64,000 nucleotides of DNA, taken from contig SCQK01000004.1 in NCBI GenBank assembly GCA_004321885.1, forward strand, positions 22,684 through 86,683, read 5' to 3'. A program made the position numbers and the translations under genes. How positions within the stretch are numbered: the stretch's first letter is position 1; every line of letters begins with the position of its first letter. Under the pieces are notes generated by a model. That model worked only from the letters and a program-made list of their open reading frames with translations. It had not been told where the DNA came from and ran no database searches. Of this stretch, positions 42,486 through 42,896 are shown piece by piece. The DNA comes from Patescibacteria group bacterium. Lineage in GTDB: Bacteria; Patescibacteriota; Patescibacteriia; Magasanikbacterales; GWA2-37-8.

Positions 42486-42896
42486 TTAATTGTCCTCCCC
42501 TTTATAAGGGGAGGAGTAAGGAGGGGTAAATTTTTTTAAATAATCCTCCAAAATGAGCATGGCCGCTTTTTCATCGCGGCTGGCCCCGCCCGCCGACCTA
42601 TCAGCCGCTTGCGATGAAAATCTTTCGTCAAAAAATTCCACAGCCGTGCCGCTCGCTTTTAATTCCCCGGCAAAACTATGGACTCTTACCGTATTTTTGT
42701 TTTCTTTTCCGTCCAAAGACAGGGGCAGGCCCAAAACAATTTTATCAATTTTTTCATCGCCGAACAAAACGGCCAGCTTGCCTGCCGCCTGCTCGTTATT
42801 TTCCAAAACTCCAAAAGGCAAAACCACATCCGCGCCCTCGCGCCAAATCGCCAGCCCAATATTCTTGGAACCGTAATCAACTCCCAAAAGATTCAT
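42486..42896 (-). CDS. ruvX: Holliday junction resolvase-like protein YqgF/RuvX with a repeat-encoded C-terminal tail
   Basis: MNLLGVDYGSKNIGLAIW.. RNase H-like motif. The last 16 aa (KKFTPPYSSPYKGEDN) are encoded by the family-A element at 42494..42528. Confidence 0.75.
   Translation of the reverse strand: MNLLGVDYGSKNIGLAIWREGADVVLPFGVLENNEQAAGKLAVLFGDEKIDKIVLGLPLSLDGKENKNTVRVHSFAGELKASGTAVEFFDERFSSQAADRSAGGASRDEKAAMLILEDYLKKFTPPYSSPYKGEDN
42494..42528. repeat. Family-A element forming the 3' end of ruvX
   Basis: CCTCCCCTTTATAAGGGGAGGAGTAAGGAGGGGTA. Confidence 0.8.

What the first reader, a model, noticed from the sequence alone, without database searches (positions are those of the whole stretch)
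42486..42528. ruvX ends inside a family-A element (repeat-encoded C-terminal tail)
- The last 16 residues of YqgF/RuvX (KKFTPPYSSPYKGEDN) and the stop codon come from the repeat.
- As with miaB, this suggests the element supplies new 3' gene ends.
- It may also double as a terminator or stabilizing hairpin.
Basis: seen in the sequence. Interest (0 to 1): 0.5.

Follow-up and report, generated by a model that had tools for sequence, protein, structure and literature searches.

The report
Repeat-encoded tail on RuvX protein
A short hairpin-forming repeat scattered through this small uncultured bacterium's genome sits in the last codons of the ruvX gene and adds about 13 unstructured amino acids; this kind of event is known in other bacteria, but relatives of the repeat also flank a nuclease gene (DUF559) in many other bacteria, which is worth following up.

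Summary
ruvX (42486..42896, minus) reads through a 39-nt copy of a dispersed palindromic repeat (42490-42528). Its 15-residue tail after the RuvX fold is the longest among 120 homologues, which have 1-12 residues there (mode 4). The two lysines are probably native. The stop codon lies 2-5 nt outside the conserved repeat, so the repeat removes a stop and does not supply one.

Nine copies occur in 64 kb. Six lie inside conserved genes: uvrA twice, miaB twice, an rluD-like gene, and ruvX. In all six the C-rich strand is the sense strand.

The terminator idea is not supported. No U-tract follows the hairpin, the next gene starts 11 nt after the stop, and another copy sits between rplR and rpsE inside a ribosomal operon.

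Repeat-encoded insertions and C-terminal extensions are documented for REPs and Rickettsia palindromic elements, so this is a new member of a known kind.

Two further results:
- The 35-nt module occurs across phyla, mostly in cyanobacteria.
- Related hairpins flanked small DUF559 (Vsr-like) endonuclease genes on at least one side in all 12 loci examined and on both sides in 10, a layout resembling REPtrons. I found no paper describing this.

The parts
42486..42896 (-). ruvX (YqgF/RuvX) ORF, 136 aa including the tail
   Evidence: ORF list. Pfam RuvX E=2e-24 over residues 1-121. Identical protein is in NCBI as RuvX of a Patescibacteria bacterium.
42534..42896 (-). Part of ruvX that encodes the conserved RuvX fold (residues 1-121)
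   Evidence: PDB chains end 2-4 residues later. The AlphaFold2 model has its last helix at 107-123 and coil after that.
42531..42536 (-). Two lysine codons (K121, K122), probably the native C-terminus
   Evidence: They lie outside the repeat. Homologues end in K-rich tails, mostly of 2-5 residues (range 1-12), after the ILEDYLx motif.
42490..42528 (-). Family-A repeat copy, with the C-rich strand as the ruvX sense strand. It fully encodes T124-D135 and contributes one base of F123 and two bases of N136.
   Evidence: the repeat finder family D1, 90% identical to the copy at 11798-11836. Exact match to the pattern CCTCCCCTTNNTAAGGGGAGGNNNNRGGNGGGGTA, which is found in many other genomes.
42493..42515 (-). 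Hairpin of the element (10-bp stem, 3-nt loop in RNA)
   Evidence: strand folding: the 74-nt sense context folds at -17.9 kcal/mol, z-score -2.7.
42520..42528 (-). Conserved tail of the element (TACCCCTCC on the sense strand, GGAGGGGTA on the other)
   Evidence: The tail motif is present in all full copies.
42486..42488 (-). TAA stop codon of ruvX, outside the conserved repeat
   Evidence: Flank conservation among 23 copies ends 4 nt from the hairpin. The stop is at -8..-6.
42472..42485 (-). 11-nt spacer plus the ATG of the next gene (MgtE_N + CBS protein, 41263..42474)
   Evidence: There is no U-tract between the hairpin and the next start, and no terminator was called.
26142..26165 (-). Truncated family-A copy encoding LPLPNPPL in the MiaB C-terminal extension
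   Evidence: Sequence. The alignment to MiaB structure 7mjz ends at residue 429 of 444.
26832..26870 (-). Family-A copy inside miaB, in frame ([12 protein letters not shown])
   Evidence: There is an 8-residue insertion relative to 7mjz at this point.
5831..5869 (-). Family-A copy inside uvrA, in frame ([13 protein letters not shown])
   Evidence: UvrA structure 2r6f has a gap at this position.
6112..6173 (-). Composite family-A copy inside uvrA, carrying a second small palindrome (6134-6152) nested within it
   Evidence: Sequence. 2r6f has gaps over query residues about 144-180.
2287..2356 (+). Composite family-A copy inside an RluD-like pseudouridine synthase gene, with a 35-nt perfect palindrome (2297-2331) nested in its spacer
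   Evidence: Sequence. Query residues 131-151 are unaligned between two contiguous segments of a solved pseudouridine synthase.
41207..41257 (.). Full two-sided palindromic copy. It fills most of the 62-nt spacer between the MgtE_N/CBS gene and the Nramp gene, and its G-rich tail ends 6 nt before the Nramp ATG.
   Evidence: The 76-nt context folds at -36.7 kcal/mol, z-score -4.5.
47547..47585 (-). Family-A copy between rplR (stop at 47588-47590) and rpsE (start at 47534), inside the ribosomal protein operon
11798..11836 (-). Family-A copy between tRNA-Leu and rnj. It is the only copy whose C-rich strand is antisense to its neighbouring genes.

Best explanation
A 35-50-nt non-coding palindromic repeat (family A) lies in the last codons of ruvX. 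On the sense strand it reads TACCCCNCC, 3-5 nt, CCTCCCC, loop, GGGGAGG.

Inferred event: the element inserted at or just before the original stop codon. It may have arrived when a 4.2-kb block was placed between ruvX and recO. The native stop was displaced. The C-rich strand is free of stop codons in two of its three frames, so translation continues through the element to the first in-frame TAA in the flanking spacer.

Result: about 13 extra residues (FTPPYSSPYKGEDN), rich in proline, serine and tyrosine. They hang off the last helix of the RNase-H-like fold and are probably disordered. They are tolerated rather than selected. The same process produced in-frame insertions in uvrA, miaB and an rluD-like gene, and a new C-terminus on MiaB.

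Shown: repeat membership, uniqueness of the tail, absence of the insertions from solved homologues, and the orientation and frame properties.
Inferred: that the copies arose by insertion (no empty site is available), and that the tail is neutral.
For: Repeat family:
- 5 matches against 0 expected by chance. Six aligned copies, with further composite and truncated copies.

The tail is an add-on:
- Pfam and PDB alignments end at residue 120-121.
- 119 homologues have 1-12 residues after the ILEDYLx motif (mode 4), against 15 here. None shares the sequence.
- AlphaFold2 places the last helix at 107-123, then coil. Mean pLDDT is 70 for residues 121-130 and 44 for 131-136.

The other copies are insertions relative to solved homologues: UvrA, MiaB and a pseudouridine synthase.

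Orientation: all six intragenic copies have the C-rich strand as sense. By direct reading of the ruvX copy, that strand is open in 2 of 3 frames and the G-rich strand in 1 of 3.

Same DNA, same peptide: another Magasanikbacteria genome carries copies inside a PrmC-like gene that encode SSPYKGE and LPLPNLPLIKGKE.

Synteny: relatives have map-ruvX-recO with 1-2 nt (two loci) or 151 nt between ruvX and recO. Here 4.2 kb intervenes, and the element sits at the ruvX-side junction.

Not an assembly artefact: an independent assembly is identical.
Against: - No closely related genome with an empty site was available. The best other RuvX is only 64% identical, so insertion is inferred, not observed.
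- No target-site duplication is discernible.
- No mobilising gene lies in the 64-kb window.
- Translation of the tail has not been shown.
- The hairpin lies at three junctions between co-directional genes, so an RNA-level role cannot be excluded.
Confidence: 0.75

Rival explanations
1. The element is kept at gene ends as an RNA hairpin that terminates transcription, blocks 3' exonucleases or marks a processing site. On this view the tail is a side effect of a selected regulatory element.
For: - The hairpin is stable: a 10-bp stem, with contexts folding at z-scores of -2.7 to -4.5.
- Three copies almost fill the spacers between co-directional genes: ruvX|mgtE_N, mgtE_N|nramp and rplR|rpsE.
- REPs and MITEs are reported to act this way (PMC3733652, PMC3184786).
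Against: - No terminator was called and no U-tract follows the hairpin.
- The next gene starts 11 nt after the stop.
- One copy lies inside the spc ribosomal operon, where termination would be harmful.
- Four copies lie deep inside coding sequences.
- The copy at 11798 is in the opposite orientation to transcription.
Confidence: 0.13
2. The tail is a scar of the rearrangement that put a 4.2-kb block (MgtE_N/CBS gene, Nramp gene, AT-rich ORFs, DUF3800 gene and its RNA) between ruvX and recO. On this view the repeat was the recombination point or came in with the block, and did not insert on its own. This is a variant of the main explanation and is compatible with it.
For: - In three related loci recO follows ruvX directly. 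Here recO is at 37538..38290 and the block lies between.
- Family-A copies sit at the ruvX junction and between the first two genes of the block.
Against: - No copy was found at the recO-side border.
- Copies elsewhere in the window are not linked to synteny breaks.
- The order of events cannot be resolved without closer relatives.
Confidence: 0.3
3. The tail is a selected functional peptide, for example a proline-rich docking motif on RuvX.
For: The peptide SSPYKGE recurs in another protein of a related genome.
Against: - That recurrence is explained by the same DNA repeat.
- No RuvX homologue shares the tail.
- The tail is predicted to be unstructured.
- Other copies are read in other frames and give different peptides.
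Confidence: 0.03
4. Sequencing or assembly error: the real ruvX stops earlier, and the read-through is an artefact of a collapsed repeat or a frameshift.
For: Short repeats can confuse assemblers, and the source is a metagenome-assembled genome.
Against: - An independent Logan assembly of run SRR8426592 is identical over all 181 compared bases.
- There is no in-frame stop between residue 121 and 42488.
- A 39-nt repeat is shorter than a sequencing read.
Confidence: 0.03

Closest known systems
REP elements and REPtrons (repetitive extragenic palindromes with RAYT transposases)
   Same: - Short (20-40 nt) G+C-rich imperfect palindromes dispersed in many copies.
- Some REPs lie wholly inside ORFs, often in replication and repair genes. 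About 10% lie at ORF 3' ends, and some supply the stop codon (PMC3733652).
- REPs flank their nuclease gene in inverted orientation. That is the layout seen here around DUF559 genes in other genomes.
   Different: - There is no GTAG or CGTC tag next to the stem. The conserved end is GGGGTA/TACCCC, 10-14 nt from the stem.
- No RAYT or other transposase lies in the window.
- Most copies here are intragenic.
- The associated gene elsewhere is a Vsr-like PD-(D/E)XK nuclease, not a Y1 transposase.
Rickettsia palindromic elements (RPE)
   Same: - Palindromic repeats inserted in frame into conserved protein-coding genes.
- They add peptides that the proteins tolerate.
- They occur in a small, reduced genome (PMC3184786; PMC3733652 notes an RPE in a pseudouridine synthase gene).
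   Different: - RPEs are about 105-146 bp and restricted to Rickettsia.
- Family A is 35-51 nt, unrelated in sequence, and found across phyla.
MITE or repeat fusions that extend the 3' ends of genes (ERIC/YPAL, BOX/RUP/SPRITE, Anabaena MITEs)
   Same: Repeat open frames fused to the 3' ends of chromosomal ORFs are documented (PMC3184786, section on repeat-element ORFs).
   Different: - Those elements are 100-400 bp with terminal inverted repeats and target duplications.
- Family A has neither, as far as the copies here show.
Nostoc small dispersed repeats (SDR, Elhai et al. 2008)
   Same: From my own memory of that paper, not checked here:
- Very small (21-27 nt) hairpin-forming repeats in cyanobacteria.
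- They are often nested within one another or carried inside mini-transposons.

Nested copies occur here, and the module is commonest in Nostoc.
   Different: The paper is not in the held library, so the sequences could not be compared. Identity with any SDR family is untested.
Intrinsic (Rho-independent) terminators
   Same: A G+C-rich hairpin at the end of a gene.
   Different: No U-tract follows, no terminator was called, and a copy lies inside a ribosomal operon.
EDxHD / Vsr-like homing endonucleases (I-Bth0305I; DUF559 fold)
   Same: - The ~120-aa genes flanked by family-A-like hairpins in other genomes match Pfam DUF559.
- The fold is used by known homing endonucleases, including free-standing ones (PMC3384342, PMC9403480).
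   Different: - Known members sit in introns or inteins. The papers read here do not describe them as flanked by dispersed hairpin repeats.
- No activity is known for these small proteins.
- None is present in the window.

Membership tests
REP (tagged repetitive extragenic palindromes, Di Nocera 2013) | Short (20-40 bp) G+C-rich imperfect palindrome present in many dispersed copies | tested here: met
   The 21-nt hairpin core is part of a 35-39-nt unit. Nine copies occur in 64 kb.
REP (tagged repetitive extragenic palindromes, Di Nocera 2013) | Unpaired GTAG or CGTC tetranucleotide immediately at one end of the stem | tested here: not met
   The conserved single-stranded part is RGGNGGGGTA, 3-5 nt away from the stem. 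Only the copy at 47585 happens to read GGGGTAG.
REP (tagged repetitive extragenic palindromes, Di Nocera 2013) | Predominantly extragenic location | tested here: not met
   Six of nine copies overlap coding sequence.
REPtron | A RAYT (Y1 transposase) gene flanked by inverted REPs in the same genome | tested here: inconclusive
   No transposase domain was found in the window ORFs scanned. Only 64 kb of the genome is available.
MITE | Terminal inverted repeats, target-site duplication, 50-400 bp | tested here: not met
   The unit is 35-51 nt. The flanks of 23 copies share only a 4-nt T-rich stretch, and no duplication is seen.
Rickettsia palindromic elements | In-frame insertion of a palindromic repeat into conserved protein genes | tested here: met
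   UvrA, MiaB and the RluD-like protein carry extra residues exactly at the copies.
Rickettsia palindromic elements | 100-150-bp unit of the RPE sequence families, in Rickettsia | tested here: not met
   The unit is 35-51 nt and the host is a Patescibacteria/Magasanikbacteria-like organism.
Intrinsic terminator | G+C-rich hairpin followed directly by a U-tract | tested here: not met
   No site was called at 42490-42530 on either strand. The downstream sequence is ACAAUUAAAAG.
Any Rfam family | Match to a curated covariance model | tested here: not met
   No match overlapped a copy at gathering score in the window or in 16 loci carrying the module. Only chance-level hits appeared at E up to 10.
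Nostoc SDR families | Sequence identity to one of the eight SDR consensus sequences | not tested
RuvX/YqgF | RNase-H-like RuvX domain over its full length | tested here: met
   Pfam PF03652 at 86.8 bits (cut-off 29.2), profile positions 1-133 of 134. PDB homologues found. AlphaFold2 model mean pLDDT 81.

The most novel reading that the evidence does not exclude
Family A may belong to a cross-phylum superfamily of elements built as a hairpin plus a G-rich tail. These would be the cognate flanks of small free-standing DUF559 (Vsr-like, EDxHD-type) endonuclease genes.

Layout seen in 12 DUF559 loci from CPR bacteria, cyanobacteria, Ignavibacteria and unassigned metagenome contigs:
- The nearest upstream hairpin carries the G-rich tail facing the gene in 10 of 12 loci, 15-120 nt before the ATG.
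- The nearest downstream hairpin is preceded by the C-rich tail in all 10 loci that have one, starting 0-130 nt after the stop.
- In some CPR copies the tail supplies the Shine-Dalgarno sequence.

On this reading the nuclease mobilises the hairpins, as in a REPtron but with a PD-(D/E)XK enzyme in place of a Y1 transposase, or it homes into them. The solo copies inside ruvX, uvrA, miaB and rluD would be its non-autonomous footprints.
Probability: 0.35. Interest if true: 0.7.

Novelty: new member of a known kind. Interest (0 to 1): 0.4.

Why it matters
For annotation: protein tails and internal Pro/Gly-rich stretches in CPR housekeeping proteins can be repeat-derived. They should not be read as lineage-specific functional motifs. 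The same peptides (SSPYKGE, LPLPNLPLxKG) recur in unrelated proteins because the DNA is the same.

For genome biology: a roughly 1-Mb-class reduced genome tolerates about one such element per 7 kb, mostly inside essential genes. This parallels Rickettsia.

If the DUF559 link is causal, it would give a function to a very large domain of unknown function. It would also define a second class of nuclease-plus-hairpin mobile systems beside RAYT/REP.

Tried and rejected
- Rfam at gathering threshold, on the window and on 16 loci with the module: nothing overlapped a copy. A permissive scan of 42380-42640 gave only chance-level hits.
- Terminator and promoter consensus scan: no site at the hairpin.
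- Transposase or RAYT in the window: Pfam on 47 ORFs found none.
- Recurrent neighbouring protein families around 123 copies of the module: clustering 586 ORFs gave no transposase. The one recurrent small family was DUF559.
- tblastn of DUF559 proteins against the window: no hit.
- Literature search by sequence words: only unrelated human or aptamer papers.
- Searches for CPR or Magasanikbacteria repeats, and for DUF559 or EDxHD linked to repeats: nothing relevant.
- Elhai 2008 (SDR) could not be opened.
- G-quadruplex idea: the cyanobacterial tail GGGGAGGGTTAGGGTGGGG is a textbook G4 motif (my own reading). The CPR subtype GGGGAGGAnTAAGGAGGGG has only GG tracts. G4 formation is therefore not a conserved property, and I dropped it as the core explanation.
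- Shine-Dalgarno role for the ruvX copy: GGAGG lies 19 nt from the next ATG, which is too far.
- My first regex census and my first 'longest ORF' context script were faulty and were redone.
- A closer ruvX relative with an empty site was sought, but the best other homologue is 64% identical.

Full report
**The locus.** The window comes from a Patescibacteria (CPR) genome. The identical RuvX protein is deposited as 'Holliday junction resolvase RuvX [Patescibacteria group bacterium]', and the nearest homologues, at most 64% identical, are mostly Candidatus Magasanikbacteria. ruvX is the ORF 42486..42896 on the minus strand, 136 aa, ending ...ILEDYLKKFTPPYSSPYKGEDN*. It lies in the order adk, map, ruvX, followed by a gene for an MgtE_N+CBS protein (41263..42474) and an Nramp gene (39968..41200).

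**Is the tail real and extra?**
- Pfam RuvX uses profile positions 1-133 of 134 within residues 1-121.
- Solved YqgF/RuvX chains end 2-4 residues after the position aligned to residue 120-121.
- In an alignment of the 120 best homologues, the number of residues after the conserved ILEDYLx motif is 1-12 (mode 4). The query has 15, the longest, and no homologue shares the sequence.
- An AlphaFold2 model built on 72 sequences has mean pLDDT 81 and its last helix at 107-123, then coil. Mean pLDDT is 70 for residues 121-130 and 44 for 131-136.
- An independent Logan assembly of run SRR8426592 is identical over the region.

**Is it a repeat?**
- 42490-42528 is 90% identical to 11798-11836 and belongs to a six-copy family.
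- The hairpin core gives 5 matches with up to 3 mismatches, against 0 in 100 shuffles.
- On the G-rich strand the unit reads CCTCCCC, TTnnTAA, GGGGAGG, 3-5 nt, RGGnGGGGTA.
- Nine copies were found in 64 kb, counting composite and truncated ones: 2287-2356, 5831-5869, 6112-6173, 11798-11836, 26142-26165, 26832-26870, 41207-41257, 42490-42528 and 47547-47585.

- Codon by codon, the repeat fully covers T124 to D135, plus one base of F123 and two bases of N136.
- The two lysines are outside the repeat and resemble the K-rich ends of homologues.
- The TAA stop (42486-42488) is 5 nt beyond the hairpin.
- In 23 non-redundant copies of this subtype, flank conservation extends only 4 T-rich nt beyond the hairpin. 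The stop lies at -8..-6, where conservation is 0.2 bit or less.
- So ruvX reads through the element and stops just past it. The element removed a stop codon and did not supply one.

**The other copies.** Alignment to solved structures shows extra residues exactly at the copies:
- UvrA against 2r6f, at two places.
- MiaB against 7mjz: an 8-residue internal insertion, and an alignment that ends at residue 429 of 444. The extra LPLPNPPL is encoded by a truncated copy.
- The RluD-like protein: 21 unaligned residues between two contiguous segments of the reference.

Two copies carry a second small palindrome nested inside them. In all six intragenic cases the C-rich strand is the sense strand. By direct reading of the ruvX copy, that strand is open in 2 of 3 frames and the G-rich strand in only 1 of 3. 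This explains the bias as survival of tolerable insertions. All three reading frames are used among the copies, so the encoded peptides differ ([37 protein letters not shown]). That argues against selection on the peptide.

About 86% of the window is genic. Three of nine copies are intergenic, which is not a significant excess (P = 0.11).

**Terminator or stabiliser?**
- The RNA hairpin is strong, with a 10-bp stem. The 74-nt sense context folds at -17.9 kcal/mol, z = -2.7.
- It is followed by ACAAUUAAAAGAAAAUUUUAUG. There is no U-tract, and the next gene's ATG is 11 nt after the stop.
- The consensus scan calls no terminator there.
- The copy at 47547-47585 starts 2 nt after the rplR stop and ends 12 nt before the rpsE start, inside the spc operon.
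- Four copies are deep inside genes.
- Termination is therefore unlikely. A stabilising or processing role cannot be tested here.

**Origin at this site.** In three related loci recO follows ruvX, with 1-2 nt between them in two loci and 151 nt in the third. In the window recO is at 37538..38290. About 4.2 kb lies between it and ruvX: the MgtE_N/CBS gene, the Nramp gene, an AT-rich stretch, and a DUF3800 gene with its DUF3800-II RNA. The element sits at the ruvX-side junction, and a full palindromic copy lies between the first two genes of the block. Whether the element arrived with the block or separately cannot be resolved.

**Comparison with what is known.**
- REPs inside ORFs are documented, often in replication and repair genes. 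About 10% lie at ORF 3' ends, and some REP termini supply stop codons (PMC3733652).
- Repeat ORFs that extend the 3' ends of genes, and Rickettsia palindromic elements inserted in frame, are reviewed in PMC3184786.
- The finding is therefore a known kind of event.
- Family A fails the defining REP tag (GTAG or CGTC at the stem). It has no MITE features and matches no Rfam family. I found no paper on such repeats in CPR bacteria.

**Beyond the window: distribution.** Most are in Nostoc, Microcoleus, Chamaesiphon and Tychonema. Others are in Nitrospirales, a Pseudomonadota MAG, Verrucomicrobiota, a deltaproteobacterial MAG and Magasanikbacteria. The CPR subtype (...GGGGAGGAnTAAGGAGGGGTA) occurs in 16 metagenome stretches. 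Some of these lie inside long ORFs, again with the C-rich strand as sense. In Magasanikbacteria GW2011_GWC2_37_14 a PrmC-like gene carries copies encoding SSPYKGE and LPLPNLPLIKGKE.

**Beyond the window: the DUF559 lead.**
- Clustering the ORFs near all copies found no transposase. It did find a ~120-aa DUF559 protein next to the element in four loci.
- I then fetched eight further DUF559 loci through protein homology alone, at 40-59% identity.
- Hairpins of this class occur at 7.9 per kb in the 150-nt flanks, against 0.22 per kb in the rest of the same loci. The Poisson P is about 3e-33. It is about 4e-10 under the conservative assumption that all background hairpins are intergenic.
- Ten of the 12 loci have hairpins on both flanks.
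- The nearest upstream hairpin carries its G-rich tail toward the gene in 10 of 12 loci. The nearest downstream hairpin is preceded by the C-rich tail in 10 of 10.
- In L123 the tail TAAGGAGGGGTA lies 2 nt before the ATG, and in L133 4 nt before, so it serves as the ribosome-binding site.
- 48 of 120 DUF559 homologues have Pro-rich C-termini of the kind seen in RuvX here, because their ORFs run into the downstream element. Among 119 RuvX homologues only 1 does.
- DUF559 shares the Vsr fold used by the EDxHD homing endonucleases (PMC3384342, PMC9403480).
- Four of the 12 loci were found through the element and are therefore biased. The other eight are not.
- No DUF559 gene is in the window.
- The association is shown. 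A causal role, whether mobilisation or homing, is inference.

**Verdict.** The reading 'the repeat makes new gene ends' is right for ruvX and miaB, but it is a by-product of a repeat that mostly sits inside genes. The terminator idea is not supported. The event is a new example of a known phenomenon. The family's cross-phylum spread and its link to DUF559 genes are the parts worth following.

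Noticed in passing
L123:1184-1626, L133:66-560, L063:4080-4700, L138:4900-5400, L142:4900-5400, L145:4940-5420, L148, L150-L153: Small DUF559 (Vsr-like) endonuclease genes are bracketed by family-A-like elements: hairpin plus G-rich tail upstream, C-rich tail plus hairpin downstream. 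Hairpin density in the flanks is about 35 times that of the rest of the same loci. I found no description of this in the literature searched.
   Followed up: partly
Genome-contig loci L002-L119: The exact 35-nt module occurs across phyla. Most hits are in Nostoc, Microcoleus, Chamaesiphon and Tychonema, with others in Nitrospirales, Pseudomonadota, Verrucomicrobiota and CPR. It is embedded in different larger repeats in each lineage. In Microcoleus it sits inside a unit whose ends (ATAGCAATCCT...AGGATTGCTAT) look like terminal inverted repeats.
   Followed up: partly
window 37538-42474: Synteny break. Relatives have ruvX directly followed by recO. Here 4.2 kb lies between them: an MgtE_N+CBS gene, an Nramp gene, an AT-rich stretch with small ORFs (39200-39960), and a DUF3800 gene.
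   Followed up: partly
window 41198-41216: The G-rich tail of the palindromic copy ends 6 nt before the Nramp ATG (GGTAGGGGTAAATGTTATG). This is the same position it holds before DUF559 genes, so the element may supply the Nramp ribosome-binding site.
   Followed up: no
window 41263-42474: This 403-aa protein has MgtE_N and CBS domains but no MgtE membrane domain. It is encoded directly upstream of an Nramp transporter and may be a detached regulatory module.
   Followed up: no
window 2297-2331 and 6134-6152: Other small perfect palindromes (TCGCCACCACACCAAAAATTTTGGTGTGGTGGCGA and TCCCGAAACAAGTTCGGGA) are nested inside family-A copies that themselves lie inside genes.
   Followed up: no
window 3626-3716, 13669-13854, 18905-18990, 45109-45165; also 3253-3275: A second repeat family (GTGGAGCC...CCCCGACTAAGTCGGGG...GGCTCCAC) is present. 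It includes a 93-bp tandem duplication just after rnj.
   Followed up: no
window 15361-15394 and 15674-15707 (within RNase P RNA 15267-15725, minus strand): Two copies of a CCCGACTAAGTCGGGAC hairpin motif lie inside the RNase P RNA gene. The gene is 459 nt against a 367-position Rfam model, so repeat hairpins may have inserted into a structural RNA.
   Followed up: no
window 38568-38631 and 38653-39195: A DUF3800-II RNA (Rfam, 67 bits) lies immediately downstream of a DUF3800 protein gene. This is the expected pairing.
   Followed up: no
L049:3263-4327: A PrmC/HemK-like methyltransferase gene in Magasanikbacteria GW2011_GWC2_37_14 carries several family-A copies in frame. They include a head-to-head pair and encode SSPYKGE and LPLPNLPLIKGKE.
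   Followed up: partly
L120:840-900: In a related genome the last codons and stop of ruvX (TTG TCA TCC TGA) run into GTCATCCTGAGCGAGACCGAAGG.... From memory this resembles another widespread repeat. Two homologues end in ...KLSS. This may be a parallel case with a different element.
   Followed up: no
L013, L017, L027, L051, L097 (flanks listed): In several non-cyanobacterial MAGs two elements sit tail to tail (GGGGTA, 4-25 nt, TACC...), often around GATC. This forms a long palindrome that could be the empty form of the DUF559 site.
   Followed up: no
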